The position numbers and the translations under genes were made by a program. Below the pieces are notes generated by a model. The model had not been told where the DNA came from and searched no databases. It saw only the letters and a list, made by a program, of their open reading frames with translations. A DNA stretch of 64,000 nucleotides from a phage, in the sequence record OZ346175.1, one strand, 5' to 3'. Of the stretch, positions 10,640 to 63,979 are shown piece by piece; the first letter of the stretch is position 1, and every line of letters begins with the position of its first letter.

Positions 10640-10702
10640 TTTTACTCCCTCTAAAATCATTAACCTCATACATTACTGCAAAAAATTATAAAAAGCAAGT
10701 TG

Positions 10703-10727: not shown

Positions 10728-10896
10728 CTTTGCGAAGTGGGTTTTTACTTAAAAGGTTACTTAACAGTTTAACTATACAGATACTTTAAAACTCTTAAAA
10801 GATTATTTAATAGCTTTTAAAAAGCTTTAAAGTATAACGTATAGAATACGTTAAGATAAAAGATTAAAACTTAATAGTTACTTAAAAGAGGCTTAC

Positions 10897-11319: not shown

Positions 11320-11320
11320 T

Positions 11321-12182: not shown

Positions 12183-12926
12183 ATGAGTAATATTATCGCA
12201 TTTACTGGAAAGGCACGTTCTGGAAAAGACACCTCATGTTCTATTGTGAAGAACATCTTAGAGGATGAGTACGGCTACAATGTTGCTGTAATGGCCTTTG
12301 CAGACAACCTTAAACTGTCTGCATCAAAGATATTTGACCTGACTTGGAATGACCTGTATGGTGAAACTAAAGAGACTCCACGGGTATTTAACTTATCATA
12401 TCCTGAACTGATGTTTAAAGTTACGGAAGCCATGAAGTTCACCTTCAGAGATGAACGTTACCATATGGACTTCAAGCTTATGTCAGAGTTAACCGGACGA
12501 TTAATCATGGAGCTTAAGAAGGTTGCTAAACCGACTCTATTGACACGTCTGGGGTTTAGCAAAAAGTATAAATTCTCATCAAGACAAATTCAACAGGTTT
12601 GGGGCACTGAAGTTGTCCGTAAAGTAATGGGCGACAAGTTCTGGTCTAAAGACCTTGAAAAAAGAATGGTTAGATTCCATGAAATGTGCTCACTTAGAAA
12701 TCAATATGGTTTTGTATTAATCAGTGATTTAAGATTTGACTCTGAAGCTGAATGGCTGAGTAGATTTGCACACCAAACTATTGAAGTAAAAAGAGACAAT
12801 GTGGACAAAGTTTCATCACATGTTTCAGAAAATGGGATTTCTACAAAATATGAGCGTGACATTATTCATAATAATGGTACTCTTGCAGACCTTGAGAACA
12901 AGCTAAGAGCCATCATTAAAGTTTAA
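12183..12926 (+). CDS. deoxynucleoside monophosphate kinase-like protein
   Basis: N-terminal P-loop FTGKARSGKDT resembling T4 gp1-type dNMP kinase. Confidence 0.65.
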   Translation: MSNIIAFTGKARSGKDTSCSIVKNILEDEYGYNVAVMAFADNLKLSASKIFDLTWNDLYGETKETPRVFNLSYPELMFKVTEAMKFTFRDERYHMDFKLMSELTGRLIMELKKVAKPTLLTRLGFSKKYKFSSRQIQQVWGTEVVRKVMGDKFWSKDLEKRMVRFHEMCSLRNQYGFVLISDLRFDSEAEWLSRFAHQTIEVKRDNVDKVSSHVSENGISTKYERDIIHNNGTLADLENKLRAIIKV

Positions 12927-12934
12927 AAGAGAGA

Positions 12935-13135
12935 ATGAAGATGAGAGTAAAAGACAATTTTAAAGTTATTGACCACCGTTTAGTGGAACTCTCATCTCTT
13001 TCCAGTGAGGTAATGATTGAACGTCTTAAGAGAGTTGAATCACGAAGGAAAGAGATTGCAGATGAAATTCATGAACTGGACAAGATTGAAAATGGATTGA
13101 AGGCAGAACTACAACGAAGAGGTGCTAATGTCTAA
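12935..13135 (+). CDS. hypothetical protein
   Basis: 66-aa coiled-coil-like ORF. Confidence 0.4.
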   Translation: MKMRVKDNFKVIDHRLVELSSLSSEVMIERLKRVESRRKEIADEIHELDKIENGLKAELQRRGANV

Positions 13136-15113
13136 AGGTCGTAAATTGAAAGAGGCTGGTCAGTTTGTTGGTCATTGCGCATGTCCACGTTGTGGTTCAT
13201 CAGATGCTGGTTCAATCTATCACCATGACGATGATTCTTATTCAATGACTTGCTTTAGTTGTAACAAAGGTTTCCCAGAGTGGGATTTTGATAAAGGACA
13301 AATCGTGAGCACTTATTCTACTGGTTCAGACAATAAAAACCGTACTTTCCGTGGAATGGATTTAGACGATGTAAAAGAAAACCTAGAAGCAATGGACTTG
13401 AAAGATAGGAAGATTCCTGCAAAAGTTCTTGAGCGTTTGGGTATTAAGGTTGACATTGACAGTGATGGTGAAATTGACGCACATTTCTACCCAACTTACA
13501 AACGTAATGAAGATGGTAAGCTAGAACATGTTGGCTACCGTGTTCGTCACCGTTACCCAGAAGACCATCCAAAAGAGCACCTACGTGGTAAGCTAAAAGA
13601 CTTTTCTGGTGGTGTTGGAGACATTAAAGGTGAACTGGCAATGTTTGGTTCATGGATTGCTCCAGAAGGTGGTAACCGTCTATTCATCTGGGAAGGTGAG
13701 ATGGAATGTGCGACAGCAATCTACATGACCTCTTTGGCGATTAAAGATAAGTCTCGTCGTAAGAATTACTGTCACGTATCTGTCCCATCGGGTGCAAACA
13801 TTAAGTCTATCAAAGACAACTATCAGTACATCACATCATTTGATGAGATTTACTTGTGCTTTGATAATGATGAAGCAGGTGCTAAAGCTACCAAAGAGGC
13901 TGCTGGCATTCTCCCTATCGAGAAGGTTCGTTTATTCCAGTATCCAGAAGGTGTAAAAGACCTTAACGAATGGTGGACAAAGTTCTATAAAGAGAAAGAT
14001 ACAGTTCTGGAAGGATTTAAGCAGCGTATCTACAATGCACCTCGTTACTGTCCTGCTGGTATCAAGAACTTCGCAGATGGTTTTGAGGCAATGAAGAATC
14101 GTGGTCAGATTCCATTGATTCCTTTCCCAGAATCATTCGGAGATTTGAACAGACTGACTTATGGTGGTTATGGACTAGGTGAGATTACAACTCTGGCAGC
14201 ACCATCTTCAGTGGGTAAATCAGCATACACTCGTGAAATGATTTACACAGCTTGGAAAGAAACCGATTACAATATTGGTGTAATTCCTGTAGAAGATACC
14301 TATGAAGAGTTGATGGAGATGCTCTGTGCAATCCACCTGAGCAAGCAGATTTCTGAGATTCCTTATGACGAACGTGATTGGGATGAATTGAAGGGAGCGC
14401 ACGCAGAACTATCTAAAGGTCGTCGTATCCACATCGTAGACCATCAAGGGGCAATTGACCAAGATAACTTACTGGAGTTTGTTGACTATCTTGTTAATAG
14501 CTTAGACTGTAAGATTATTATTCTTGACCCTATTACGTTGGCTCTGTCACGTTCAGATACGGATGAAGAGGAAGTTTTGTCTGAGCTATTGCGTCGTTGC
14601 AAACGCTACCAGTATGCACAAGTGAACGTCTGTCACGTTCGTAAGAGTGCAGGTGGTCAGAAGGCTAACTCTGAAGGTGGAGATATCTCTGAAGAGGATA
14701 TTAAAGGCTCTGGTGCGTATTTCCAGATTTCTATGAACAACATTCTGTTAATGCGTAACAAGGTTGACCCAGACCCTGTTAAGAAAAACTTGACAAAAAT
14801 CAAGCTAACTAAATGTCGTCGTCACGGTAAGTCAACGGGTATTGCTGGTCATACTTGGTACAATCCAGATACAGGACGCCTCATCAAAGCATCTGGTTGC
14901 GGAGTTGACATTGATGGTGCAGCAGAAAATATTCGCCAACAGTTTGGTATTGGTGAAGCTGAAGACCATTACGATGACTCTTTGCCACATTATGAGGATG
15001 AAGTGTTTGACCGTGAGACTGGTGAAGTCTATACTGAAGAGCAGCGTCAAAGCTCAACGATTCCACCTGTATTAAGTGAGGATGCAGATGACTGCCCATT
15101 CGAAACTGAGTGA
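13122..15113 (+). CDS. DNA primase-helicase (T7 gp4-like)
   Basis: N-terminal Cys4 zinc ribbon (CPRCGSSD...CFSCNKG), central primase region, C-terminal helicase with Walker-A-like AAPSSVGKS. Confidence 0.85.
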   Translation: MLMSKGRKLKEAGQFVGHCACPRCGSSDAGSIYHHDDDSYSMTCFSCNKGFPEWDFDKGQIVSTYSTGSDNKNRTFRGMDLDDVKENLEAMDLKDRKIPAKVLERLGIKVDIDSDGEIDAHFYPTYKRNEDGKLEHVGYRVRHRYPEDHPKEHLRGKLKDFSGGVGDIKGELAMFGSWIAPEGGNRLFIWEGEMECATAIYMTSLAIKDKSRRKNYCHVSVPSGANIKSIKDNYQYITSFDEIYLCFDNDEAGAKATKEAAGILPIEKVRLFQYPEGVKDLNEWWTKFYKEKDTVLEGFKQRIYNAPRYCPAGIKNFADGFEAMKNRGQIPLIPFPESFGDLNRLTYGGYGLGEITTLAAPSSVGKSAYTREMIYTAWKETDYNIGVIPVEDTYEELMEMLCAIHLSKQISEIPYDERDWDELKGAHAELSKGRRIHIVDHQGAIDQDNLLEFVDYLVNSLDCKIIILDPITLALSRSDTDEEEVLSELLRRCKRYQYAQVNVCHVRKSAGGQKANSEGGDISEEDIKGSGAYFQISMNNILLMRNKVDPDPVKKNLTKIKLTKCRRHGKSTGIAGHTWYNPDTGRLIKASGCGVDIDGAAENIRQQFGIGEAEDHYDDSLPHYEDEVFDRETGEVYTEEQRQSSTIPPVLSEDADDCPFETE

Positions 15114-46645: not shown

Positions 46646-46894
46646 ATGGCAACTATCCGCGCAACTGTTAACGAATTTGGCTTCTACTCTCTGGATGTTA
46701 AATTTGACCTTGTAGGCACTGACAACGCCTTTGAAATGGTGAAAGGTCTTATCAGTCAGACCATCAAGGACTATAATCCTTCTGATGAGTTCTGGAAAGA
46801 AACAAAACAGGAAGTTCTCAAAGAGGGTTATTCTTATCACTATTGGGGTGAAAAAATTGTCTCTCTGTACTACGACAAAGAAGGCACTAACTAA
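46646..46894 (+). CDS. hypothetical protein
   Basis: 82 aa; last gene of rightward block. Confidence 0.5.
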   Translation: MATIRATVNEFGFYSLDVKFDLVGTDNAFEMVKGLISQTIKDYNPSDEFWKETKQEVLKEGYSYHYWGEKIVSLYYDKEGTN

Positions 46895-46932
46895 ACGCCG
46901 CAACGGGGCTAAATAGCCCCAGATACCTTTAC

Positions 46933-46955
46933 AGCCCCTTAAATGGGGCTTTTTT
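46933..46955 (+). terminator. rho-independent terminator
   Basis: agcccctt-aaat-ggggct hairpin followed by TTTTTT. Confidence 0.6.
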
Positions 46956-46965
46956 ACGTCTTATC

Positions 46966-48570
46966 AAACCCCTTATACAACCCTTTCCCTTTCCTTTCCT
47001 TTCCTTTCCAGAATCTTATCAGACCTTAAAAAGCAATAACTTTACAGCCTTTTACTAAGTCAATTAATTGGCCTTATTAATAAGCCCTTAAACATAAGCC
47101 AATAACCCCAGAAAGGGGGCAACCCATTTAAACGCCATATAAAGCCCTATAACGGCCTTTTTAACCTAACTTAAGGGATTGCATTACCTCACCCTTAAAA
47201 GCCCTTTATAAAGCTTCACAGAGCCTTAAAAGAATCTTATAAGGGTGTAAGCTTTATTATCTCGTTAGCTATCTTGTGAACTACTAAACAACCCCCTTGA
47301 TAGTAACTGAAAAGTATGTTATAGGGGCTTTAAAGTTACTTTGAAGTAGCTTAAAAGTTACGTAAATGCTAGCCCCCTTAACATTTTCTTAACAATTTCT
47401 TAACAAACTCTACATAGTTATGCTTGTTAGGGACTTGTTAGCCCCTTGTTAAATCTCTGTTACAACCATGTAAAAGCCTTGTAAGAGTCTTTGACATAGC
47501 CTTTAAAGCCCCTGTAAAGCCCTATAAAGAGCTTTCTACATAGTTGGGGTGTAATTACTAGGAAGAGGCTTAAAAGAGCTTACAAGGAGCTATAGAGAGC
47601 TTTTAAGAGGTATGTTAAGAGAATCACTAAGAGGGAAAGGGAACGATAAGAAAAGAGATAGTGACCATGTAATAGCTTGTTAAAAAGGTTAAACACTTGT
47701 TAGGAACTTGTTAATTGTCTTAACAAAATAACCCTTTAAAATTAACTTGTTAGCTCTTGTTAGTCATCTGTTAAGCATCTGTAAAGACTATTCAGCACTT
47801 GTTAATTGGTATTGTTACCAATCCCTAGAAAACTGTTAAGCCCTTGTTAGTTCTGTTAAGAAACTGTTAAGACCTTTGAAGAGTTGTTAAGAAGATGTGA
47901 GAGCTGTTAAGAGATTGTTAAGGATATTTTAAAATTTTGCAAAGTACTTGTAAGGGAGTTGTTAAGGGCTACCAAGCAGATATACATCCTAATCAGATAT
48001 TTTTCAGTTCCTTCAAAGACCCTAAAAAATGACTTGATAGTCCTATTTTATAAAAATTTTAAGATTCTGAATAATTACCTAGACAGTCTTTTAAAAATAC
48101 AGGTAATAACAGGCTTATAAGATACCTTGTTAGTACCGTGTTAGACCTTGTGAGATAAGGTCTGTAAAGATATTCCTGTTAAGTTTGTTAAAACAGTCTA
48201 TATAGAGGCTTAGTAATACCTAGTGAACACCTATAGAGAGTCACATAGCTAACCTAGAGATTAAGAGGTGTATAGGAGCTTCTAAGAGTGTGTAGAGAGA
48301 TGATTAAGGTGATTGTATAGGTTGTTTAGAAGGCTTGTTAGAAGAGTGTTTAGAGGGCTATTTAGAAGGGCTATACAGAGGGCTATTAAGACCACTAGAT
48401 AGTTACTAAGATACTATATAGTACTATATAACTATATAGAGAGTAAGATTAAGAAGGTTGTTAAGGAGGATAGATACTTTGTTCACATATGATGGTGGCC
48501 CAGAGGTTGGGACAACCGATAAAATTTTATAAAAATTAAAAAGCCCCCAATTAAGGAGGCTCTTAAGATA
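46966..48570. repeat. ORF-free repeat-dense region between convergent transcription units
   Basis: No ORF of 60 aa or more in any frame; (CCTTT)n tract near 46980-47010; more than 20 copies of (c)ttgttag/(c)tgttaag around 47395-47930; gggctat(t/a)(t/c)aga(a/g)g and ctatata repeats around 48300-48450. Confidence 0.7.
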
Positions 48571-48573
48571 TTT

Positions 48574-49167
48574 TTAAATCAGTGTTTCCAGAACTGTTTT
48601 CAATGATGACTTGGTTGTCTGATAAAAATGAGTGAATCCATTGTTGTTATCGAATATCTGCATCATAACAGCATCTCCCTTGATTGGGTACACTCGGATA
48701 TCATAGTGAAACCCATTAAAGACAGCAGAACCATTACAGAATACACTAAAATCATCCACTGAGATGTACTCTTCATGTCCTGTGATTTTTATACAAACAC
48801 CTTTACTCGGTCTCTTAGGGTTGATATCTTCCATCACAGACATACTCTGTCCACCAAGAGATACCATAGTGACCACTTTACGGTTCTTCTGTTTAAAGTA
48901 CATCTTAACTTTCTGCAAAGTGTCTTCATAGAATGGATAAGACCTTTCTACAAAGATTCCTTCAAGTGGCTCTTTACCATTTTCAACTTCTCTGTTATGA
49001 CGTACTGCAAAGATAATTTGTTCAAACCAGTCAAGATTTTCTTCGGAGAGTGCTTCCCGAATATCATTCCAGTCAAGGACTAGATAGTTGCCTTCAACTT
49101 CTTTTAAGTTATCTTTTTCCATAGCTATCATACCATTATCGTAAAACTTGGTAATCCGGTACTGCAA
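48574..49167 (-). CDS. hypothetical protein
   Basis: 197-aa ORF, last gene of leftward operon. Confidence 0.45.
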   Translation of the reverse strand: MQYRITKFYDNGMIAMEKDNLKEVEGNYLVLDWNDIREALSEENLDWFEQIIFAVRHNREVENGKEPLEGIFVERSYPFYEDTLQKVKMYFKQKNRKVVTMVSLGGQSMSVMEDINPKRPSKGVCIKITGHEEYISVDDFSVFCNGSAVFNGFHYDIRVYPIKGDAVMMQIFDNNNGFTHFYQTTKSSLKTVLETLI

Positions 49168-58227: not shown

Positions 58228-58304
58228 CTCTGTTTAGCTCAGCTTGGTAGAGCGTTCCGTTTGGGGCGGTAAGGCCGGAGGTTCAAGTCCTCCAACAGAG
58301 ACCA
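58228..58304 (+). tRNA. tRNA-Pro (anticodon TGG)
   Basis: Hand cloverleaf: acceptor ctctgtt/aacagag, anticodon loop ttTGGgg, T-arm ggagg-ttcaagt-cctcc, CCA encoded. Confidence 0.7.
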
Positions 58305-58311
58305 AATTAAT

Positions 58312-58389
58312 GTTCCAGTAGACAAAATGGTAAAGTCACCACTCTTTCAAAGTGGATATCTGAGGGTTCAAATCCCTTCTGGAACGCCA
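58312..58389 (+). tRNA. tRNA-Glu (anticodon TTC)
   Basis: Acceptor gttccag/ctggaac, anticodon stem ccact/agtgg, loop ctTTCaa, T-loop ttcaaat, CCA encoded. Confidence 0.6.
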
Positions 58390-58396
58390 GTTTTGA

Positions 58397-58469
58397 CAGA
58401 AGACCAATTACAGCAAACTTAATCTTATTCATCTGAAGGTAAATCGGACAAAGAAGAGATTTGGTCTGG
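58397..58469 (+). ncRNA. structured element A (cagaagacc...ggtctgg stem family)
   Basis: 5' cagaagaccaattacagcaa and 3' tggtctgg; stem agacca/tggtct; family member without tRNA-like module. Confidence 0.35.
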
Positions 58470-58480
58470 TCATTAAGAAT

Positions 58481-58557
58481 TGCGGGTATAGAGAAAGGGC
58501 GTCTCACATGTCTCATTAGCATGGTATCGGCAGGTTCGACTCCTGCACCCGCCTCCA
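58481..58557 (+). tRNA. tRNA-Met or Ile2 (anticodon CAT), non-canonical acceptor
   Basis: D-stem gaga/tctc, anticodon stem catgt/gcatg, loop ctCATta, T-arm gcagg-ttcgact-cctgc; acceptor pairing needs one mismatch. Confidence 0.5.
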
Positions 58558-58563
58558 AATTTG

Positions 58564-58624
58564 CAGAAGACCGTATTCAGCAACAAAATACTTTTTTGCG
58601 GATAAAAGAAAAAACACGGTCTGG
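58564..58624 (+). ncRNA. structured element B (cagaagacc...ggtctgg stem family)
   Basis: cagaagaccgtattcagcaa ... cggtctgg; stem agaccg/cggtct (compensatory relative to A). Confidence 0.35.
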
Positions 58625-58635
58625 CAATGTATTAA

Positions 58636-58712
58636 GGTTAGGAAGCACATAAGGTATGTGCGGTCGCCTGTTAAGCGAATGGCACAGGGTTCGAATCCCT
58701 GACTAACCGCCA
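58636..58712 (+). tRNA. tRNA-Asn (anticodon GTT)
   Basis: D-stem gcac/gtgc, anticodon loop ctGTTaa, T-arm caggg-ttcgaat-ccctg, CCA encoded; position 8 is A (atypical). Confidence 0.55.
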
Positions 58713-58720
58713 AATTAAAT

Positions 58721-58808
58721 GTGTCGTTATCCCGTAGATGGTAGCGGTGGGGACTGTAAATCCCTTGTCATTGAGACTCGGTAGGTTCGACTCCTACACG
58801 GCACACCA
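58721..58808 (+). tRNA. tRNA-Tyr (anticodon GTA)
   Basis: 88 nt with long variable arm; anticodon stem gggga/tccct, loop ctGTAaa; T-arm gtagg-ttcgact-cctac; CCA encoded. Confidence 0.7.
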
Positions 58809-58813
58809 ATAAA

Positions 58814-58890
58814 GGCTATGTAGTTTAACTGGAGAAAATACTCCCCTGTCACGGGAGATGATGTGAGTTCAAGTCTCATCGTAGCCGCCA
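58814..58890 (+). tRNA. tRNA-Asp (anticodon GTC)
   Basis: Acceptor ggctatg/cgtagcc, anticodon stem ctccc/gggag, loop ctGTCac, T-loop ttcaagt, CCA encoded. Confidence 0.75.
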
Positions 58891-58951
58891 ATTTTGAGAG
58901 GGCTATTTAGCCCCTCCCTTAAAGAGTTCTTACGAGTATTCTTTAAGGGAG

Positions 58952-59035
58952 CAGAAGACCAAATACAGCAAGAATGTATGAAATTTCAAGCCAATTTAAT
59001 TTTGAAAATTTAAAACTTGGTCTGGCTCAACAAAT
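58952..59035 (+). ncRNA. structured element C (cagaagacc...ggtctgg stem family)
   Basis: cagaagaccaaatacagcaa ... ttggtctgg; stem agaccaa/ttggtct. Confidence 0.35.
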
Positions 59036-59038
59036 TTA

Positions 59039-59170
59039 CAGAAGACCGTTTACAGCAAAACTTAAACAATCTATTTCTCCGGTAAAGAAAAGGCGAAGGT
59101 TCGATTCCTTCACTCGGCAGATGTCGAGTTGGTGTAATGGTAGCACTTAAGATGATAAACAACGGTCTGG
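59039..59170 (+). ncRNA. Y-RNA-like element D with circularly permuted tRNA-like module
   Basis: 8-bp closing stem agaccgtt/aacggtct; internally T-arm gaagg-ttcgatt-ccttc, acceptor-like stem actcggc-agat-gtcgagt closed by a loop, then D-arm gtg-taatggtag-cac. Confidence 0.5.
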
Positions 59171-59171
59171 T

Positions 59172-59315
59172 AATTATCTTTGTAGATAAGTTATTAAGCT
59201 TACCTGTGAGTATGCGACCACAAAGGGTGAAAGGGTAAATTCTAGATTTAAACCCAACAAGGCACATCGCTACAGACCTTAAGCAAGTCTGGGTAGCTTA
59301 TCTACAAAGATAATT
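59172..59315 (+). ncRNA. structured element closed by 19-bp perfect inverted repeat
   Basis: aattatctttgtagataag (59172-59190) exactly complementary to cttatctacaaagataatt (59297-59315); internal cagacc...gtctgg hairpin. Confidence 0.4.
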
Positions 59316-59319
59316 TAAT

Positions 59320-59395
59320 GGAAGTGTAGCAGAATGGTGATGCGGCAGACTTTTAATCTGACAGGCGATGGGTTCGAATCCCTCCACTTCTACCA
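59320..59395 (+). tRNA. tRNA-Lys (anticodon TTT)
   Basis: Acceptor ggaagtg/cacttct, anticodon loop ctTTTaa, T-loop ttcgaat (T-stem needs a bulge), CCA encoded. Confidence 0.55.
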
Positions 59396-59399
59396 ATAT

Positions 59400-59476
59400 G
59401 GTTCAGTCGCAGATAAGGTAATGCAAGGGTCTCATAAGCCCTATGAATGTTGGTTCGATTCCCATCTGAACCTCCA
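59400..59476 (+). tRNA. tRNA-Met (anticodon CAT)
   Basis: Acceptor ggttcag/ctgaacc, anticodon stem agggt/gccct, loop ctCATaa, T-loop ttcgatt, CCA encoded. Confidence 0.6.
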
Positions 59477-59477
59477 A

Positions 59478-59553
59478 GCTGGTATAGTTAAGAAGGTTAT
59501 AACACTCCCCTGATAAGGGAACATCGGTGGTTCGATTCCACCTACCAGTACCA
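59478..59553 (+). tRNA. tRNA-Ile (anticodon GAT)
   Basis: Acceptor gctggta/taccagt, D-stem gtta/taac, anticodon loop ctGATaa, T-arm ggtgg-ttcgatt-ccacc, CCA encoded. Confidence 0.75.
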
Positions 59554-59568
59554 ATTTCAATAAAGTTG

Positions 59569-59597
59569 TTGACATTGAGATGTGACTACTTTATAGT
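59569..59597 (+). promoter_or_regulatory. sigma70-type promoter internal to tRNA cluster
   Basis: TTGACA-N17-TATAGT. Confidence 0.5.
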
Positions 59598-59798
59598 AAC
59601 CTTAGTTTTCGTTGCGTAGCGTCTATTTTGCAAATTTAAAATAAATGCAAACGACAATGTTTTTCTGGCAGTAGCTTGATAGGCTAAACACCAGTGAGGT
59701 CTTCCAATCCCTCATCAAAGAATTTGGCGTACTCGCCCACGGTATGATTAATAAGGTGGGCATCTTTAAGGGCTTTCTAAGAGAGTCTTTAAAGATAA

Positions 59799-59876
59799 TG
59801 CACCCTTAGTTCAATTGGATAGAGCAACGGTCTTCTAAATCGTTAGTTACAGGTTCGAATCCTGTAGGGTGTACCA
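59799..59876 (+). tRNA. tRNA-Arg (anticodon TCT)
   Basis: Acceptor gcaccct/agggtgt, D-arm gttc-aattggata-gagc, anticodon stem acggt/atcgt, loop ctTCTaa, T-arm acagg-ttcgaat-cctgt, CCA encoded. Confidence 0.75.
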
Positions 59877-60018
59877 AATAGTTAGCAGATTACTTAGACG
59901 GCCTTAGCGGGTCTTCCTGTAGGGAGGTGGTCTGTATCTCATGTTTTCCAGAACATGTAAATAATCTGAGAAGAAGCTTGACAGTGTTGAGATAACAGGG
60001 TAAGCTTCGAATTATAAT

Positions 60019-60101
60019 ATGGGACGATGTTAAGACTCTAAGGCATGAGCAACGGCCTCCAAAACCGTTTCAAAGGGGTTCAACTCCTCCGTCCCATGCC
60101 A
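60019..60101 (+). tRNA. tRNA-like gene, probable Trp (anticodon CCA), atypical D region
   Basis: Acceptor atgggac/gtcccat, anticodon loop ctCCAaa, T-loop ttcaact, CCA encoded; D region about 7 nt longer than canonical. Confidence 0.45.
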
Positions 60102-60114
60102 AAGTCTTATTAGG

Positions 60115-60202
60115 GGTAGGTAGCGGCTAATGGCAGCCAAACAGTCTTGAAAACTGTTGCCACTGTAGAGATACGGTGAGGGTTCGACTCCTTTACTTAC
60201 CG
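60115..60202 (+). tRNA. tRNA-Ser (anticodon TGA)
   Basis: 88 nt with long variable arm; anticodon stem acagt/actgt, loop ctTGAaa; T-arm gaggg-ttcgact-ccttt; CCA not encoded. Confidence 0.7.
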
Positions 60203-60458
60203 CCTAATAAGATTTACTCCGTCCATGCTTGTTCGCATTGTCGGTTTATCCCTCGTGTATTGTCGTACACTGTCAAAGCACCTAGTAGGTGTCACGGAGA
60301 AGAGATAATATCAAGCTCTCCAAAGGTTCTAGTCACCGGATTAAACAAGACTATGCAAAGACCTATTTAGGTCTTTTTAGAGGGCTTCTAAGGTTATTAG
60401 TCGCTTGTTGTGGAACCTTGTTGCTCAGGTTCTTAGAAGTTCTCTAAAAAGATTTAAT

Positions 60459-60536
60459 GGGAGATTGACGGTAATTGGTAAACCTACCATCCTTAGAAGT
60501 TGGTGTTTGAGGGTTCGAATCCCTTGTCTCCTACCA
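60459..60536 (+). tRNA. tRNA with apparent anticodon TAG (Leu-type) on short-variable-arm scaffold
   Basis: Acceptor gggagat/gtctcct, anticodon loop ctTAGaa, T-arm gaggg-ttcgaat-ccctt, A73, CCA encoded; no long variable arm. Confidence 0.45.
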
Positions 60537-60543
60537 AATTAAT

Positions 60544-60619
60544 GCAGGTGTAGCAAAATGGTTATGCGGCTGACTCTTAATCAGTAAGACGATGGGTTCA
60601 ATTCCCTCCACCTGTACCA
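60544..60619 (+). tRNA. tRNA-Lys (anticodon CTT)
   Basis: Paralog of 59320..59395; acceptor gcaggtg/cacctgt, anticodon stem gctga/tcagt, loop ctCTTaa, T-loop ttcaatt, CCA encoded. Confidence 0.6.
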
Positions 60620-60625
60620 GACATC

Positions 60626-60702
60626 GGGGTCATAGTTTATATGGTTAAAATTCGAGTTTTGCAAACTTGGGAACTGAGTTCAATTCTCAGTGACTCCACC
60701 AA
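60626..60702 (+). tRNA. tRNA-Ala (anticodon TGC)
   Basis: Acceptor ggggtca/tgactcc, anticodon stem cgagt/acttg, loop ttTGCaa, T-arm ctgag-ttcaatt-ctcag, CCA encoded. Confidence 0.7.
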
Positions 60703-60708
60703 TTAGTG

Positions 60709-60781
60709 CATCCATAGTTTAAACGGGAAAATTACAGTCTTCCAAACTGAGGTTGAGGGTTCGATTCCCTCTGGATGCTCC
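60709..60781 (+). tRNA. tRNA-Gly (anticodon TCC)
   Basis: Acceptor gcatcca/tggatgc, anticodon loop ctTCCaa, T-arm gaggg-ttcgatt-ccctc. Confidence 0.65.
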
Positions 60782-60796
60782 AAATTAAGGTGTGAT

Positions 60797-61210
60797 ATGA
60801 AAATATGCAGTACTTGCAGAATACCAAAAGATGAAAGCTTATTCCATAAGAATAAGAACAAGAAAGATGGTCTTCAAAGTCAATGCAAAGACTGTGCAAG
60901 ACTTCGTGATGCAAAGAGTTATCAAGCAAATGATAAAAGGAAAGAGGCTATTAAAAGCACTCGTAACTTCAAGAGAGAGTATAACAAGACTCTAGCTAGA
61001 AGGTACAAAGCTTTATGCAAATGTCATATATGTGGTGAGAAAGAACCAGTTGCATTGGATTTACACCATACAGACCCTTCCCAGAAAGATTTGAATCCTG
61101 CATCACTTTATTCATACTCCACAAAAAGATTAAAAGATGAAATCAGAAAGTGCATTGTCTTGTGCGCTAACTGTCACAGAAAAGTACATGCTGGTATCAT
61201 AAAAGTTTAA
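60797..61210 (+). CDS. HNH endonuclease inside tRNA cluster
   Basis: 137 aa; zinc-binding Cys pairs and HNH motif (LDLHHTDP...CANCHRKVH); flanked by tRNA genes. Confidence 0.75.
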   Translation: MKICSTCRIPKDESLFHKNKNKKDGLQSQCKDCARLRDAKSYQANDKRKEAIKSTRNFKREYNKTLARRYKALCKCHICGEKEPVALDLHHTDPSQKDLNPASLYSYSTKRLKDEIRKCIVLCANCHRKVHAGIIKV

Positions 61211-61211
61211 T

Positions 61212-61288
61212 GCTGCTTTCGTATAATTGGCTATTACACATCCCTTGTAAGGATGGAAATGCAGGTTCAAGTCCTGTGAGCAGCACCA
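61212..61288 (+). tRNA. tRNA-Thr (anticodon TGT)
   Basis: Acceptor gctgctt/gagcagc, anticodon stem catcc/ggatg, loop ctTGTaa, T-arm gcagg-ttcaagt-cctgt, CCA encoded. Confidence 0.75.
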
Positions 61289-61292
61289 ATTC

Positions 61293-61379
61293 AGAGGTCA
61301 AGTGAAAGACCGCTTTGAGTCAACTGAAGACCGTAACAAATCCCACGGAGTTGAGTTAGCGGCACAACTCCAGACCTCT
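61293..61379 (+). ncRNA. structured element E between tRNA genes
   Basis: Closing stem agaggtc/gacctct; internal hairpin ggagttg-agttagcggca-caactcc; two gaagacc motifs. Confidence 0.35.
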
Positions 61380-61384
61380 TTCAT

Positions 61385-61459
61385 ACTCGCTTAGTTTATA
61401 TGGTAAAACATCACCCTTACAAGATGAAGAAAAAGGTTCAAGTCCTTTAGTGAGTACCA
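61385..61459 (+). tRNA. tRNA-Val (anticodon TAC)
   Basis: Acceptor actcgct/agtgagt, D-stem gttt/aaac, anticodon loop ctTACaa, T-arm aaagg-ttcaagt-ccttt, CCA encoded. Confidence 0.7.
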
Positions 61460-61460
61460 T

Positions 61461-61538
61461 GTTCCAGTATCCCAATTGGCAGAGGATGCAAGCTCAAACC
61501 TTGTATTAGTGACGGTTCGAATCCGTCTTGGAACACCA
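61461..61538 (+). tRNA. tRNA with apparent anticodon CAA (Leu-type) on short-variable-arm scaffold
   Basis: Acceptor gttccag/ttggaac, anticodon stem gcaag/cttgt, loop ctCAAac, T-arm gacgg-ttcgaat-ccgtc, A73, CCA encoded. Confidence 0.45.
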
Positions 61539-61543
61539 ATTTT

Positions 61544-61619
61544 GCAGGATTAGTTCAAATGGATAGAGCAACAGTCTACGAAGCTGTTAATAGGGGTTCG
61601 AATCCCTTATCCTGCGCCA
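61544..61619 (+). tRNA. tRNA-Arg (anticodon ACG)
   Basis: Acceptor gcaggat/atcctgc, D-arm gttc-aaatggata-gagc, anticodon stem acagt/gctgt, loop ctACGaa, T-loop ttcgaat, CCA encoded. Confidence 0.75.
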
Positions 61620-61638
61620 ATTTAAAGAGGCTATTTAG

Positions 61639-62196
61639 ATGAGATATTTGAAGTATGCTTCATGGATTTTTTTAGCTTTGTTAGAGCCATTTGCAGCAAT
61701 CTTAGCAGTTATCTTAGCACCTTTTGTAGTTCCATTCTACAGTGAGAAGAAAGGACACTTACCTTTCGGGTTCAGATGGATGGAGACATATGACAACCCA
61801 ATTGATGGTGATGAAGGTCACGTTAAAAGATGGGCTAATATTAGATGGATTGGTAAACTAGGTGTCTACATGCAAAGAGTCGGATGGCTCTGGAGAAACA
61901 AAGCTTATAACTTCTCTTACCATGTATTAGGAAGAGATGTAAGAGATGTTACTAAGTGGAAAGGTAATATCAACGTAAGTTCTGACCCCGAAGATAATCA
62001 GACAGGTTATCTCCTAATGTGGAACAGTAATGCTTGGGGATTATTCGCTTTTATCCCATCAATTAAAATCTTTGGTAAACAATTTTACTGGAGAATTTAT
62101 ATTGGATGGAAACTAAAAAGTGTTGTCCCAGAAGAAAGAGCATTCTCAAGGGAAAGAGTTATGTTGGCATTCTTTATTCATCCACTGAGAAAGTAA
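61639..62196 (+). CDS. hypothetical membrane protein
   Basis: 185 aa; hydrophobic N-terminus (WIFLALLEPFAAILAVILAPFVVPF), Trp-rich; embedded in tRNA cluster. Confidence 0.5.
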   Translation: MRYLKYASWIFLALLEPFAAILAVILAPFVVPFYSEKKGHLPFGFRWMETYDNPIDGDEGHVKRWANIRWIGKLGVYMQRVGWLWRNKAYNFSYHVLGRDVRDVTKWKGNINVSSDPEDNQTGYLLMWNSNAWGLFAFIPSIKIFGKQFYWRIYIGWKLKSVVPEERAFSRERVMLAFFIHPLRK

Positions 62197-62204
62197 AGAT
62201 TTAA

Positions 62205-62280
62205 AGGGGATTAGTTTACAAGGTTAAAACCTCGGTCTTTGAAATCGAAGAAGTTGGTTCAATTCCAACATCCCCCGCCA
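62205..62280 (+). tRNA. tRNA-Gln (anticodon TTG)
   Basis: Acceptor aggggat/atccccc with unpaired 1:72, anticodon stem tcggt/atcga, loop ctTTGaa, T-arm gttgg-ttcaatt-ccaac, CCA encoded. Confidence 0.65.
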
Positions 62281-62282
62281 AT

Positions 62283-62361
62283 GCTCCATTACTCCAATTG
62301 GCAGAGAGGCCAGACTTAAAATCTGTGTTATGTATCGGTTCGAATCCGATATGGAGTACCA
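62283..62361 (+). tRNA. tRNA with apparent anticodon TAA (Leu-type) on short-variable-arm scaffold
   Basis: Acceptor gctccat/atggagt, anticodon loop ctTAAaa, T-arm atcgg-ttcgaat-ccgat, A73, CCA encoded; variable region 7 nt. Confidence 0.45.
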
Positions 62362-62366
62362 AATTT

Positions 62367-62442
62367 AGCGGTATAGCATAACTGGCAATGCAGCAGCCTC
62401 TGAAGCTGTCCTATTAAGGTTCAAATCCTTATGCCGCTGCCA
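62367..62442 (+). tRNA. tRNA-Gln (anticodon CTG)
   Basis: Acceptor agcggta/tgccgct, D-stem gcat/atgc, anticodon stem gcagc/gctgt, loop ctCTGaa, T-arm taagg-ttcaaat-cctta, CCA encoded. Confidence 0.65.
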
Positions 62443-62473
62443 CTTCTAAGGATTCTTGCGAGAGTCCTTAAAT

Positions 62474-62549
62474 GTGGCCTTATCATAAACGGTAATGACC
62501 CATGCTGTGAACATGGTCTATACGGGTTCAAATCCCGTAGGTCACCCCA
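62474..62549 (+). tRNA. tRNA-His (anticodon GTG)
   Basis: Acceptor gtggcct/aggtcac, D-stem tcat/atga, anticodon stem ccatg/catgg, loop ctGTGaa, T-arm acggg-ttcaaat-cccgt, CCA encoded. Confidence 0.75.
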
Positions 62550-62554
62550 ATTTA

Positions 62555-62631
62555 TAGTCCAAGTAGCTTATATGGTTAAAGCGCGTGTCTGAAAAACATG
62601 AGAAGAGGGTTCAAATCCCACTGGACTACCA
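62555..62631 (+). tRNA. tRNA-Phe (anticodon GAA)
   Basis: Acceptor tagtcca/tggacta, D-stem gctt/aagc, anticodon stem cgtgt/acatg, loop ctGAAaa, T-loop ttcaaat; 3' end register ambiguous. Confidence 0.55.
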
Positions 62632-62647
62632 ATTTCAAAGGTGCTTA

Positions 62648-63382
62648 ATGAAAGAGATGACAGAACAAGGTAAGGAGATTTTTAATCTCTTAAAAACTGG
62701 TAAAGGGTTCTCTAACCCGCTTATTACTGGTGCAGCAGTTCTCGGTGGAACCGTAGCTGCTTCTACATCACTTGTAAGCTCTATTAGTTCTGTAACAGAC
62801 CCTACAATGAAAGAGAAACTTGTTGCTGCTGGACTTACAACAGTCCTTCTAAACAGCTTTACAACAAGCCTTACAAGCACTACAGCAACTACTAAAACTC
62901 TGACAGACTACGGTCAAAAATCTATTGATGAGTTTTCATCACGTATGCAGGTAGCAAAGGGGTATTCCAATGTTATGGGTGCAGCAGGAGAACAAGTTGG
63001 TTGTACACCATTCAGTGGTATCATGGGTGTTGCTACAGAGTATGGTCAAAAAGCTATTGACATGATGAACAGTACACTAGATAGTGTTAATGGTGTGTTA
63101 AGTGACTTACAAGATGCTATTGATAAGGGTCTTGATACTGTTTCTGATTTAGCTAACCAAGCTGTCAGTAAGATTAATGAAGGTATTTCAAAGATTACAG
63201 CTTATGCAGATGAAGTTGTGCAGATGATTGAAGAAGAAGCTGCCCCTATTGCAGAGTACCTTAAAACGAATATCAATGGGTTCTTAGCAGGTATCTTACC
63301 AGACTGGTTTGACGATGCTTGTAAAACTGGTGTGATTGACACTATTGCAACACCAGAAATGAAGAGCGCATTACAGAAATAA
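62648..63382 (+). CDS. hypothetical Ser/Thr-rich protein
   Basis: ORF 62585..63382 trimmed to MKEMTEQ to clear tRNA-Phe; Ser/Thr-rich low-complexity N-terminal half. Confidence 0.45.
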   Translation: MKEMTEQGKEIFNLLKTGKGFSNPLITGAAVLGGTVAASTSLVSSISSVTDPTMKEKLVAAGLTTVLLNSFTTSLTSTTATTKTLTDYGQKSIDEFSSRMQVAKGYSNVMGAAGEQVGCTPFSGIMGVATEYGQKAIDMMNSTLDSVNGVLSDLQDAIDKGLDTVSDLANQAVSKINEGISKITAYADEVVQMIEEEAAPIAEYLKTNINGFLAGILPDWFDDACKTGVIDTIATPEMKSALQK

Positions 63383-63383
63383 T

Positions 63384-63476
63384 GGAAGATTAACCCTAAA
63401 AGGTAAGGGAGCAGTTTGCTAAACTGCCAGTAGCTGAGAAATCGGTGTACCAGTTCAAGTCTGGTATCTTCCTCCA
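63384..63476 (+). tRNA. tRNA-Ser (anticodon GCT)
   Basis: 93 nt with 21-nt variable arm; acceptor ggaagat/atcttcc, D-stem ccc/ggg, anticodon stem gcagt/actgc, loop ttGCTaa, T-arm accag-ttcaagt-ctggt, CCA encoded. Confidence 0.75.
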
Positions 63477-63480
63477 ATTT

Positions 63481-63556
63481 GAATCCGTGACAGAAATGGA
63501 TATGTACCTGTCTGCAAAACAGGTTTATAAGGGTTCGAGTCCCTTCGGATTCTCCA
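63481..63556 (+). tRNA. tRNA-Cys (anticodon GCA)
   Basis: Acceptor gaatccg/cggattc, anticodon stem cctgt/acagg, loop ctGCAaa, T-loop ttcgagt, CCA encoded. Confidence 0.75.
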
Positions 63557-63778: not shown

Positions 63779-63979
63779 ATGAGTGAGACCGTTTATAAAG
63801 AACTTTATGAAGCTAACAAAAAGCTAGAATTTATGCAGAACACTATCATGGCAATTGCAGATAGATTATCTGTAGCAACAGGTATTGATATCAAAGAAGC
63901 CTCTATGGATGCACTTCTTGATGCTGTTGATGCAAAGTTCGAAGTTAAGAAAGAAGAGACTGCTACAGACTCTGAATAA
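63779..63979 (+). CDS. hypothetical small protein
   Basis: 66-aa ORF preceded by ggagaaa RBS. Confidence 0.45.
   Translation: MSETVYKELYEANKKLEFMQNTIMAIADRLSVATGIDIKEASMDALLDAVDAKFEVKKEETATDSE

What the first reader, a model, noticed from the sequence alone, without database searches (positions are those of the whole stretch)
46966..48570. 1.6-kb ORF-free region densely packed with short direct repeats between convergent operons
No ORF of 60 codons or more in any frame. It contains a (CCTTT)n tract (46980-47010), more than 20 copies of an 8-bp motif (cttgttag / ctgttaag / ttgttaag) between 47395 and 47930, and further arrays (gggctat(t/a)(t/c)aga(a/g)g; ctatata) around 48300-48450. Repeat arrays of this kind in phages mark replication origins, packaging or terminus-proximal regions, or injection-stop signals such as the one described in the T5 first-step-transfer DNA.
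Basis: partly seen in the sequence, partly recalled or inferred. Interest (0 to 1): 0.75.

Follow-up and report, generated by a model that had tools for sequence, protein, structure and literature searches.

The report
Genome ends of a Felix O1-like phage
The gene-free, repeat-packed stretch is where the two ends of this Felix O1-like phage's linear chromosome meet, including its ~600-bp terminal repeat; this feature was already mapped experimentally in a close relative, so it is real and functional but largely known.

Summary
Window 46904-48573 is the largest ORF-free, tRNA-free stretch. It lies between convergent terminators and is packed with short repeats: 29 copies of TGTTAR, 18/kb against 1.4/kb elsewhere.

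The window is a Felixounavirus, up to 94% identical to deposited phages. The region is the junction of the virion chromosome ends in a circularly permuted assembly. Two independent records (E9, ZX4221) start at the homologue of 47372 and end at the homologue of 47973, with identical 580/591-bp terminal copies. The 608-bp terminal repeat of UAB_Phi87, determined by Bal31 digestion and run-off sequencing, maps to the same place. The direct terminal repeat (DTR) here is therefore 47372-47973, flanked by unique non-coding DNA.

I found three points in no paper searched:
- The DTR holds 23 of the 29 TGTTAR copies, in roughly helical phase, at 33-40/kb in four Ounavirinae genera.
- The motif columns are more conserved than the spacers between them.
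- The cut-site contexts are conserved as far as Kolesnikvirus.

My best inference is that the arrays are the recognition platform for the packaging machinery. I found no support for an origin or an injection-stop signal. Verdict: a known feature with a modest new anatomical description.

The parts
46646..46894 (+). Last gene before the right chromosome end (82 aa, homologue of Felix O1 ORF23/Gp23)
   Evidence: ORF list. Felix O1 annotation places ORF23 immediately left of the same gap. Gp23 was found in Felix O1 virions by mass spectrometry (PMC3185647). PHROG 4559, function unknown.
46933..46957 (+). Intrinsic terminator closing the rightward gene block (hairpin 46933-46950 plus T-run); a second hairpin GGGGCTAAATAGCCCC lies at 46905-46920
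   Evidence: Terminator scan. Coordinates checked. Homologous to Felix O1 terminator t23 at 12345-12368.
46966..47371 (.). Left flank: unique non-coding DNA at the right end of the virion chromosome. C-rich on the + strand, with AAGCCCT-type motifs. The least conserved part of the region.
   Evidence: GC skew down to -0.43. k-mer enrichment. 78-79% identity to Felix O1 and UAB_Phi87 against 87-95% for the other parts.
46982..47009 (+). (CCTTT)5.4 tract inside a hypervariable segment (46960-47100); copy number and neighbouring 23-bp units differ between relatives
   Evidence: Tandem Repeats Finder. Alignment of 11 phages. Low conservation bins at 46945-47095.
47190..47247 (.). Conserved imperfect palindrome (CACCCTTAAAAGCCC...AAGGGTG) in the left flank
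   Evidence: Inverted repeat I6. ssDNA fold z-scores of -3.1 and -3.3. Conservation 0.96. No compensatory changes seen, so more likely a dyad protein site than a selected hairpin.
47349..47371 (.). Left cut-site context GCTTAAAAGTTACGTAAATGCTA| containing the palindrome TTACGTAA (47358-47365). The AAAGTTACGTAAAAGAGGCTAT unit varies in copy number: 1 here, 2 in E9, Felix O1 and Moogle, 3 in NJ12.
   Evidence: Alignment of boundaries. Coordinates.
47372..47973 (.). Direct terminal repeat (602 bp, single collapsed copy in this assembly). Starts GCCCCCTTAACA and ends GGGCTACC. The run-off-sequenced boundaries of UAB_Phi87 would put it at about 47380-47975.
   Evidence: E9 and ZX4221 records start and end at the homologous bases, with 580/591-bp identical ends. 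UAB_Phi87 608-bp DTR sequence mapped. Ro111lw has a 613-bp DTR.
47378..47452 (.). Left-end motif cluster: three TTAACA copies (motif on the - strand; 47378, 47389, 47400), then three TGTTAR copies on the + strand (47425, 47436, 47447), all at 11-bp spacing around TCTACATAGTT (47409-47419)
   Evidence: Motif map. Tandem repeats of period 11. Inverted repeats I3 and I8 pair this cluster with the right-end array.
47613..47965 (+). Main TGTTAR array: 16 + strand copies and 1 - strand copy, with neighbour spacings mostly 9-11, 20 or 31 bp. The last copy (47960-47965) sits 8 nt from the right cut.
   Evidence: Phasing R=0.44 at 10.5-10.75 bp; 29 of 2000 random placements reach this.
47974..47986 (.). 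AAGCAGATATACA, the element immediately outside the right DTR boundary. Identical (13/13) in Felixounavirus, Mooglevirus, Suspvirus and Kolesnikvirus.
   Evidence: Boundary alignment including SPARTY and Roscha1. Coordinates.
47974..48570 (.). Right flank: unique non-coding DNA at the left end of the virion chromosome. G-rich on the + strand. The most conserved part. Holds 6 more TGTTAR copies (48128-48464), the period-12 array at 48325-48391 and ACTATATAG x3 at 48412-48440.
   Evidence: GC skew up to +0.53. 94-95% identity to Felix O1 and UAB_Phi87, at or above the adjacent genes. Tandem Repeats Finder. No Rfam family.
48539..48564 (-). Intrinsic terminator closing the leftward gene block
   Evidence: Terminator scan. 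Coordinates.
48574..49167 (-). First gene inside the left chromosome end (197 aa, homologue of Felix O1 ORF24), transcribed toward the end
   Evidence: PHROG 4330, function unknown.

Best explanation
**What it is.** The region is the chromosome-end (concatemer-junction) region of a Felix O1-like myovirus that packages DNA with short, exact, non-permuted direct terminal repeats. In replicating concatemers one copy of the 602-bp repeat (47372-47973) lies between the right-end flank (46966-47371) and the left-end flank (47974-48570).

**How the ends are made.** During packaging the terminase makes sequence-specific cuts at ...GTTACGTAAATGCTA|GCCCCCTTAACA and at ...TGTTAAGGGCTACC|AAGCAGATATACA. 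The repeat is duplicated, so every virion DNA starts and ends with it, as in T7-type phages.

**What is shown.**
- The location and boundaries of the repeat, by homology to sequenced ends and to an experimentally mapped relative.
- Conservation of the cut-site contexts across four genera.
- Transcription from both sides being terminated before the region, as judged from predicted terminators.

**What is inferred.** The phased TGTTAR copies (23 in the repeat) are binding sites for a phage protein of the packaging machinery. This would be a TerS-like specificity factor, which has never been identified in this group. The protein would coat or wrap the repeat on one helical face. The outermost copies, which face outward at both ends (5'-TGTTAAGGG reads toward each cut), would position the two cuts.

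I put about 0.9 on the terminus/DTR identity and about 0.4-0.45 on the packaging-platform role of the arrays.
For: **Identity of the phage.** 256 phage records match at 80-94% identity, and all those inspected are Ounavirinae.

**Sequenced termini.** E9 (PhageTerm: DTR, PMC11737134) and ZX4221 begin at the homologue of 47372 and end at the homologue of 47973. Their first 580/591 bp are identical to their last 580/591 bp. BPS15Q2 starts 14 bp away, and an SPT-1 contig ends about 5 bp away.

**Experimental termini.** UAB_Phi87 ends were mapped by Bal31, SpeI digestion and run-off sequencing. Its published 608-bp DTR runs AACATTTTCTTAACAA...GTTAAGGGCTACCAA. That is the same segment within 8 and 2 nt. 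Predicted SpeI end fragments are 2747 and 4435 bp, against the published 2819 and 4322 bp. Ro111lw has a 613-bp DTR.

**Kolesnikvirus.** SPARTY carries a 439-bp DTR, and the Roscha1 record starts within 1 nt of the homologous base. Short DTRs are also reported for Fifi106 and Fifi318.

**Arrays.**
- TGTTAR density is 33-40/kb in the DTR of Felix O1, UAB_Phi87, Moogle, SUSP1, SPARTY and Roscha1, against 1.2-1.8/kb in their coding DNA.
- Motif columns are 94.5% conserved against 85.4% for spacers within the genus, and 90.9% against 69.6% versus Moogle and SUSP1. The permutation test gives 0 of 5000.
- Spacing is phased at about 10.5-10.75 bp.
- The boundary copies are inverted.

**Selection on non-coding DNA.** The DTR and right flank align full-length to Moogle and SUSP1, while the adjacent genes align only in part.

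**No TerS.** None is annotated next to TerL in the group.
Against: - The window holds only one collapsed copy, so the repeat and the ends are inferred for this phage by homology, not observed.
- One paper reports pac-type headful packaging for a Felixounavirus (SEP1) from PhageTerm. This conflicts with the DTR reports, although Bal31 and run-off data are stronger evidence.
- The published SpeI fragment sizes differ from my prediction by 72 and 113 bp.
- Boundaries from run-off sequencing and from deposited records differ by 8 and 2 nt, so the exact cut positions and any overhang are unknown.
- No protein is known to bind TGTTAR. The array's role in packaging is inference from position, phasing and conservation only.
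- The phasing statistic is moderate (29 of 2000 random placements reach it).
- The outward-facing symmetry of the terminal copies is clear in Felixounavirus, Mooglevirus and Suspvirus but not in Kolesnikvirus.
Confidence: 0.8

Rival explanations
1. The TGTTAR arrays are sites for a DNA-binding protein that is not part of packaging. Examples are an end-protecting or end-tethering protein, a nucleoid-type or regulatory phage protein, or a decoy for a host protein. On this reading the arrays merely reside in the terminal repeat.
For: Phased, conserved, oriented short motifs indicate protein binding but do not say which protein. Linear ends need protection, and the PhageMaP authors suggest that the related phage Bas63 lacks a RecBCD inhibitor. 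A small virion protein (Gp23) is encoded right beside the end. Six further copies lie outside the repeat, in the right flank.
Against: The outermost copies abut both cut sites in mirror orientation. This is most simply explained by the cutting machinery. The motif is essentially absent from the rest of the genome, including promoter-containing intergenic regions, which argues against a general regulator. It matches no host consensus that I tested: DnaA box, IHF, Chi.
Confidence: 0.25
2. The region is, or also contains, an iteron-type origin of replication. The phased repeats would bind an initiator, and the AT-rich stretch at 48020-48100 would melt.
For: The repeats look like iterons at about 11-bp spacing. 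A 20% GC stretch lies at 48040-48100. Local GC skew changes sign at about 47400.
Against: - The region is at the physical chromosome ends.
- It sits at a cumulative GC-skew maximum where transcription converges. The minimum and the divergent gene switch are at about 10-11 kb.
- There are no DnaA boxes or IHF sites.
- Flanking genes have no initiator-like domains.
- The local skew flip is explained by inverted orientation of the C-rich and G-rich motif families on the two flanks.
Confidence: 0.07
3. The region is an injection-stop or ejection-control signal like that in the T5 first-step-transfer DNA.
For: It lies at a chromosome end and is rich in direct and inverted repeats.
Against: The repeat is only about 600 bp and encodes nothing, so there is no pre-early gene set to express during a pause. 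There are no DnaA boxes. No two-step transfer is reported for this group in the papers searched. Genes next to both ends are transcribed toward the ends, so a paused end would expose no promoter-proximal genes.
Confidence: 0.04
4. The region encodes one or more non-coding RNAs or a micro-protein.
For: The right flank is 94-95% conserved, at or above neighbouring genes. Each half is G-rich in the sense that divergent transcripts from about 47400 would have. A 17-codon ORF with AAGGAGG upstream lies at 48478-48531.
Against: - There is no Rfam hit; the best E-values are 0.16-0.18, far below gathering scores.
- Sigma-70-like sites are not above chance (12 against 7.3+/-3.1) and none is strong.
- The micro-ORF start and Shine-Dalgarno sequence are lost in most relatives, and the frame breaks in Moogle and SUSP1.
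- Predicted terminators on both sides should stop entry of flanking transcripts.
Confidence: 0.05

Closest known systems
Direct terminal repeat of Felix O1-like phage UAB_Phi87 (Bardina et al. 2016, PMC4837284); also Ro111lw 613-bp DTR (PMC6454146)
   Same: It is a homologous sequence, 81% identical over the repeat. It has the same boundaries within 8 and 2 nt, the same length class (608/613 bp against 602 bp), and the same position between ORF23-like and ORF24-like genes.
   Different: Nothing essential. The papers report only the repeat and its length. They do not describe the TGTTAR arrays, the conserved cut-site contexts or the flanks.
T7/T3 concatemer junction: 160/230-bp terminal repeat flanked by arrays of short repeats (from my own knowledge of Dunn & Studier 1983; not verified with the tools)
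   Same: Both have a short exact DTR and a non-coding junction region packed with phased copies of a 7-8-bp motif. The ends are presumably made by site-specific cuts plus duplication of the repeat.
   Different: In T7 the arrays lie mainly beside the repeat; here most copies are inside it. T7 has an identified small terminase (gp18), and phage-RNA-polymerase promoters in the junction flanks contribute to end maturation. This phage has no RNA polymerase gene reported and no TerS annotated. There is no sequence similarity.
Repeated terminase-binding elements at pac/cos sites: lambda cosB R-sites, P1 pac hexamers, SPP1 pacL/pacR boxes (from my own knowledge)
   Same: All have multiple short, phased motif copies flanking a terminase cut, in opposed orientation on the two sides.
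   Different: Those systems have 3-7 copies and a known TerS that binds them, and they produce cohesive or headful ends. Here there are about 23 copies over 600 bp, two cuts 600 bp apart, and no binding protein known.
Kolesnikvirus terminal repeats (Hafnia phage SPARTY 439 bp; Erwinia phages Roscha1, Fifi106/318)
   Same: The architecture matches: a C-rich left flank, a DTR with TGTTAA/TTAACA at 37-39/kb, a G-rich right flank, and an identical AAGCAGATATACA just outside the right boundary.
   Different: The repeat is shorter and barely alignable outside about 125 bp. Motif orientation is more evenly split between the halves. The flank repeats use different words (TTCTAA, CTTCTCAG).
T5 injection-stop signal in the long terminal repeat
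   Same: Both are repeat-rich non-coding DNA near a chromosome end.
   Different: The T5 signal lies inside a 10-kb repeat that carries pre-early genes and, as I recall, includes DnaA boxes. Neither feature is present here.

Membership tests
Short exact direct-terminal-repeat (T7-type) chromosome ends | The same sequence is present at both ends of the virion DNA | tested here: met
   Met for close relatives: E9 has 580 bp and ZX4221 has 591 bp identical at both record ends, homologous to window 47372-47973. For this phage itself it is inferred, because the window carries one collapsed copy.
Short exact direct-terminal-repeat (T7-type) chromosome ends | Unique, non-permuted ends at fixed nucleotides | tested here: met
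   Four independently deposited records (E9, ZX4221, SPARTY, Roscha1) begin or end at homologous bases. Bal31 and run-off mapping in UAB_Phi87 gives the same segment. The boundary sequences are intact in the window. One dissenting PhageTerm report of headful packaging exists.
Short exact direct-terminal-repeat (T7-type) chromosome ends | Read-start pile-up and about 2x coverage over the repeat in this phage's own virion DNA reads | not testable with these tools
   No reads are available for the window.
Short exact direct-terminal-repeat (T7-type) chromosome ends | Large terminase belonging to the short-DTR clade | not tested
   TerL lies just beyond the window end. Published trees place Felix O1-like TerL with DTR packagers.
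Terminase recognition site with repeated binding elements (pac/cos-type) | Several copies of a short motif flanking the cut, in opposed orientation | tested here: met
   Three - strand copies start 6 nt inside the left cut, and the last + strand copy ends 8 nt inside the right cut. Both read 5'-TGTTAAGGG toward the cut.
Terminase recognition site with repeated binding elements (pac/cos-type) | Motif bound by the small terminase or an equivalent specificity factor | not testable with these tools
   No TerS is identified in the group. Flanking proteins have no recognisable domains.
Iteron-type replication origin | Directly repeated initiator-binding sites | tested here: inconclusive
   Phased repeats exist, but their identity as initiator sites is untested.
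Iteron-type replication origin | Host-factor sites (DnaA boxes, IHF) and an adjacent initiator gene | tested here: not met
   No DnaA box (1 mismatch or fewer) or IHF consensus. The neighbouring genes are of unknown function with no Rep-like domains.
Iteron-type replication origin | Position at the strand-bias switch expected of an origin (cumulative GC-skew minimum, divergent genes) | tested here: not met
   The region is at a cumulative-skew maximum with convergent genes. The minimum is at about 10-11 kb. This is confounded by gene orientation.
T5-type injection-stop signal | Lies in a long terminal repeat downstream of pre-early genes that are expressed during the pause | tested here: not met
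   The repeat is 602 bp and ORF-free.
Known structured RNA families (Rfam 15) | Covariance-model match at or above the gathering score | tested here: not met
   The best hits score 22-26 bits against thresholds of 48-55.

The most novel reading that the evidence does not exclude
The roughly 23 helically phased TGTTAR copies in the terminal repeat are conserved at the same density in all four Ounavirinae genera examined. They would be the loading platform of a still-unidentified packaging-specificity protein, the 'missing' small terminase of Felix O1-like phages. The outward-facing end copies would set two mirror-image cuts 600 bp apart, which would explain how the repeat is defined and duplicated.
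Probability: 0.4. Interest if true: 0.45.

Novelty: already known. Interest (0 to 1): 0.25.

Why it matters
Locating the ends matters in three practical ways:
- It shows that this assembly is circularly permuted.
- It shows that the 'convergent operons' are really the two chromosome ends.
- It shows where the genome should be opened for annotation.

Beyond that, how myoviruses with short terminal repeats recognise, cut and duplicate their ends is poorly understood. No small terminase is known for the Felix O1 group, which is widely used for Salmonella typing, biocontrol and therapy. A conserved, countable DNA motif at the ends, plus an invariant 13-mer beside one cut, gives concrete bait for finding the protein. 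It also gives concrete targets for mutagenesis. For engineering, it marks sequences that must be kept intact when rebooting or shortening these genomes.

Tried and rejected
- **Rfam scan at permissive E-values.** Nothing credible.
- **Sigma-70 promoter scan.** Not above shuffled expectation, and no strong site.
- **Micro-ORF at 48478-48531 with AAGGAGG upstream.** Its start and Shine-Dalgarno sequence are not conserved, and the frame is broken in other genera.
- **DnaA box, IHF consensus and Chi.** All absent.
- **Hairpin hypothesis for the conserved palindrome at 47190-47247 and for the DTR boundaries.** The palindrome folds better than shuffles, but substitutions are not compensatory. The boundaries do not fold.
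- **Domain searches of six flanking proteins in Pfam and PHROGs.** Only families of unknown function.
- **The 66-aa ORF upstream of TerL as a TerS candidate.** It is acidic with no evidence of DNA binding. Not pursued.
- **IMG/VR scan for the boundary 15-mer.** Only nine Felixounavirus-like contigs carried the arrays. The other hits were chance matches, so no new lineage was found.
- **PhageMaP knockout data for the relative Bas63.** The library targeted genes only, so it is uninformative for this region.
- **NJ12 terminal 127-bp overlap.** An assembler artefact, not a repeat boundary.
- **BPS17W1 and ESCO50 record starts.** Arbitrary openings.
- **Literature search for T7 pacB and concatemer-junction details.** It returned nothing usable, and Casjens & Gilcrease 2009 is not held. 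The T7, lambda, P1 and SPP1 comparisons therefore rest on my own knowledge.
Full report
**1. The observation**

The stretch 46904-48573 has no ORF of 60 codons or more in any frame; the longest is 53 aa. It is the largest such gap in the window. The smaller gaps at 58-63 kb are filled by 26 tRNA genes.

Absence of long ORFs is not in itself improbable for DNA of this composition. Of 500 dinucleotide shuffles, 385 also lack one. What stands out is a 1.6-kb non-coding gap in an otherwise dense phage genome.

The gap is bounded by a + strand terminator (46933-46950) after the gene ending at 46894. On the other side a - strand terminator (48564-48539) follows the gene whose stop is at 48574.

- (CCTTT)5.4 at 46982-47009.
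- A period-12 array at 48325-48391.
- ACTATATAG x3 at 48412-48440.
- The 8-bp motif, whose core TGTTAR occurs 29 times (25 on +, 4 on -). That is 18/kb against 1.43/kb in the remaining 62 kb. CTTGTTA is about 100-fold enriched.

'More than 20' is therefore slightly generous.

**2. What the window is**

The region matches 256 phage records at 80-94% identity. All those inspected belong to Ounavirinae, mostly Felixounavirus, and the best match is phage LinBro at 93.8%. In Felix O1 itself the homologous gap lies at 12306-13927, between ORF23 and ORF24. The Felix O1 genome paper does not discuss the gap. It only infers 'short terminal repeats' from genome size.

**3. The decisive lead: deposited records begin and end inside the region**

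Several records start or stop within this region.

Phage E9 is reported from PhageTerm to have direct terminal repeats (PMC11737134). Phage ZX4221 is an independent record. Both start with GCCCCCTTAACATT, the homologue of window 47372. Both end with GTTAAGGGCTACC, the homologue of 47973. Their first 580 and 591 bp are 100% identical to their last 580 and 591 bp.

BPS15Q2 opens 14 bp to the left, and an SPT-1 contig ends about 5 bp away. Other openings are arbitrary or assembler artefacts: NJ12 with its 127-bp overlap, BPS17W1 and ESCO50.

**4. Experimental anchor**

Bardina et al. 2016 (PMC4837284) treated UAB_Phi87 DNA with Bal31. They identified two progressively degraded SpeI fragments and sequenced off the ends, reporting a 608-bp direct terminal repeat. 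Their Figure S1 gives its sequence: AACATTTTCTTAACAA ... GATGTTAAGGGCTACCAA.

In the UAB_Phi87 record this is the segment between GCCCCCTTAACA and AAGCAGATATACA. It agrees with the E9 and ZX4221 boundaries within 8 nt on the left and 2 nt on the right. Terminal SpeI fragments predicted from those boundaries are 2747 and 4435 bp, against the published 2819 and 4322 bp. The match is close but not exact.

A 613-bp repeat was reported for the Felix O1-like phage Ro111lw. Short repeats are also reported for Kolesnikvirus phages. One paper reports headful packaging for a Felixounavirus from PhageTerm alone. I weight the Bal31 and run-off data higher.

**Conclusion on identity.** The window is a circularly permuted assembly. 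The 'ORF-free region between convergent operons' is the junction of the two chromosome ends, made of three parts:
- Right-end unique flank, 46966-47371.
- One collapsed copy of the terminal repeat, 47372-47973 (602 bp).
- Left-end unique flank, 47974-48570.

Genes at both ends are transcribed outward, toward the ends.

**5. Anatomy beyond the published description**

*(a) Motif content of the repeat.* The repeat holds 23 of the 29 TGTTAR copies. It opens with three copies on the - strand (47378, 47389, 47400), followed by three on the + strand (47425, 47436, 47447), all at 11-bp spacing. It closes with a long + strand array whose last copy ends 8 nt from the right cut.

Read outward, both ends have the same form. 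The left end, on the bottom strand, is 5'-TGTTAAGGGGGC|. The right end, on the top strand, is 5'-TGTTAAGGGCTACC|. Inverted repeats I3 and I8 reflect this.

*(b) Phasing.* Inter-copy distances cluster at 9-11, 20-21 and 31 bp. The vector strength is 0.44 at a period of 10.5-10.75 bp, reached by 29 of 2000 random placements. Most copies therefore lie on one face of the helix.

*(c) Selection on the motif.* In an alignment of nine Felixounavirus, one Mooglevirus and one Suspvirus, every phage keeps 24-33 copies. Motif columns are more conserved than spacer columns:
- 94.5% against 85.4% within the genus.
- 90.9% against 69.6% versus Moogle and SUSP1.
- 0 of 5000 random hexamer sets match the observed value.

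*(d) Density across genera.* Motif density in the repeat is nearly constant: 33-40/kb in Felix O1, UAB_Phi87, Moogle, SUSP1, SPARTY and Roscha1. Their coding DNA has 1.2-1.8/kb. The Kolesnikvirus repeat is otherwise almost unalignable.

*(e) Cut-site contexts.* These are conserved:
- Left, in three genera: GTTACGTAAA(T/A)GCTA|GCCCCCTTAACAT.
- Left, in Kolesnikvirus: TTTACGCTATGGTTA|GCCACTTTTACAT.
- Right: the 13-mer AAGCAGATATACA immediately outside the boundary is identical in all four genera.

*(f) The flanks.*
- The left flank is C-rich (skew -0.43), the right flank G-rich (+0.53). They carry related words in opposite orientation (AAGCCCT against AGGGCTA).
- The left flank has a hypervariable segment with a (CCTTT)n tract and 23-bp units. 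It also has a variable-number GTTACGTAAA unit beside the cut and a conserved 58-bp imperfect palindrome.
- The right flank is the most conserved part. It is 94-95% identical to Felix O1 and UAB_Phi87, equal to or above the neighbouring genes. Together with the repeat it aligns full-length to Moogle and SUSP1, where the neighbouring genes align only partly.
- The Kolesnikvirus junction has the same layout built from different words.

**6. Mechanism**

*Shown.* The region is the chromosome-end region, the repeat boundaries sit at conserved sequences, and the non-coding DNA is under purifying selection.

*From established knowledge of short-DTR phages (T7-type; my own knowledge).* Concatemers carry one repeat per junction. 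The terminase cuts at fixed sites, and the repeat is duplicated during packaging.

*Inferred.* The TGTTAR copies are protein-binding sites, and the protein is most probably part of the packaging machinery. Three points support this:
- The end copies bracket both cuts in mirror orientation.
- The motif is virtually confined to this region.
- The group lacks any identified small terminase.

A phased array on one helical face suits cooperative coating or wrapping. I rate this sub-claim at about 0.4-0.45. The main alternative (about 0.25) is a non-packaging end-binding or regulatory protein.

**7. Rivals tested**

*Replication origin.*
- There are no DnaA boxes or IHF sites.
- There is no initiator-like neighbour.
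- The region lies at a cumulative GC-skew maximum, whereas the minimum and the divergent gene switch are at about 10-11 kb.
- The local skew flip is accounted for by the motif orientation.

*T5-like injection stop.* The repeat is short, has no genes, and has no DnaA boxes.

*Non-coding RNA or micro-protein.*
- There is no Rfam match.
- Promoter-like sites are at chance level.
- The one micro-ORF with a Shine-Dalgarno sequence is not conserved.

*Chance or low complexity.* Excluded by the enrichment and conservation statistics.

**8. Comparison and novelty**

The nearest known thing is the homologous, experimentally mapped repeat of UAB_Phi87, so the feature is already known for the genus. Functionally it resembles the T7/T3 concatemer junction with its arrays of short repeats. 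It also resembles the repeated terminase-binding elements of lambda cosB, P1 pac and SPP1 pac. These comparisons rest on my own knowledge. They differ in that here most copies lie inside the repeat, there are far more of them, and the binding protein is unknown.

In the papers I could search I did not find the array architecture, its conservation across the subfamily, or the invariant 13-mer. That is a modest descriptive addition, not a new kind of element.

**9. Verdict**

- Observation: confirmed.
- Interpretation: partly supported. Terminus and packaging are right; origin and injection stop are unsupported.
- Novelty: already known.
- Interest: about 0.25. The main value is as a handle on the unidentified packaging-specificity factor of Felix O1-like phages.

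Noticed in passing
window 1-64000: The tetranucleotide GATC is completely absent from the 64-kb window, with 0 observed against about 227 expected from a second-order Markov model. CCGG (0.43x) and CGCG (0.56x) are also depleted. This is total avoidance of the Dam/MboI/Sau3AI-type site.
   Followed up: partly
window 46646-46894 (+): The 82-aa gene immediately beside the right chromosome end is the homologue of Felix O1 Gp23. That 9.7-kDa protein was detected in purified virions by mass spectrometry (PMC3185647). It has no recognisable domain. A small virion protein encoded next to the DNA end could be an end-associated or ejected protein.
   Followed up: partly
window 63779-63979 (+): A 66-aa acidic ORF is identical to the one directly upstream of the large terminase gene in phage E9. 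TerL itself starts just beyond the window end. No small terminase is annotated in this phage group.
   Followed up: partly
window ~10669-11321: A divergent gene switch (- strand genes to the left, + strand genes to the right) coincides with the cumulative GC-skew minimum of the window. It is a more plausible place than the terminal region for an origin or early promoters.
   Followed up: no
window 58228-63556 (+): A cluster of 26 tRNA genes accounts for all the other ORF-free gaps in the window.
   Followed up: yes
window 46960-47100; 47349-47371; just right of 47989; just left of 48537: Indel hot spots within the otherwise conserved terminal region:
- (CCTTT)n copy number, and 23-bp AGAATCTATCCCACTAATTCGAC units present in E9, heid and BPS15Q2.
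- One to three copies of an AAAGTTACGTAAAAGAGGCTAT unit beside the left cut.
- A 24-bp insertion, ATGAGGTAGATTCTACCGAATCAA, 16 nt outside the right boundary in BPS15Q2, NJ12 and Moogle.
- A 25-bp indel before the - strand terminator.
   Followed up: partly
window 47409-47419 and 47535-47545: The 11-mer TCTACATAGTT occurs twice inside the terminal repeat. The first copy lies exactly between the inverted triplets of TGTTAR copies, and it is conserved in relatives. Its role is unknown.
   Followed up: no
L016/L017 (Hafnia phage SPARTY OK483342.1) junction: The flanks of the Kolesnikvirus terminal repeat carry their own dense arrays. There are about 17 copies of TTCTAA(A/G) on the C-rich flank. 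CTTCTCAG and further TGTTAAG copies lie on the G-rich flank. The layout is conserved but the repeat words are not.
   Followed up: partly
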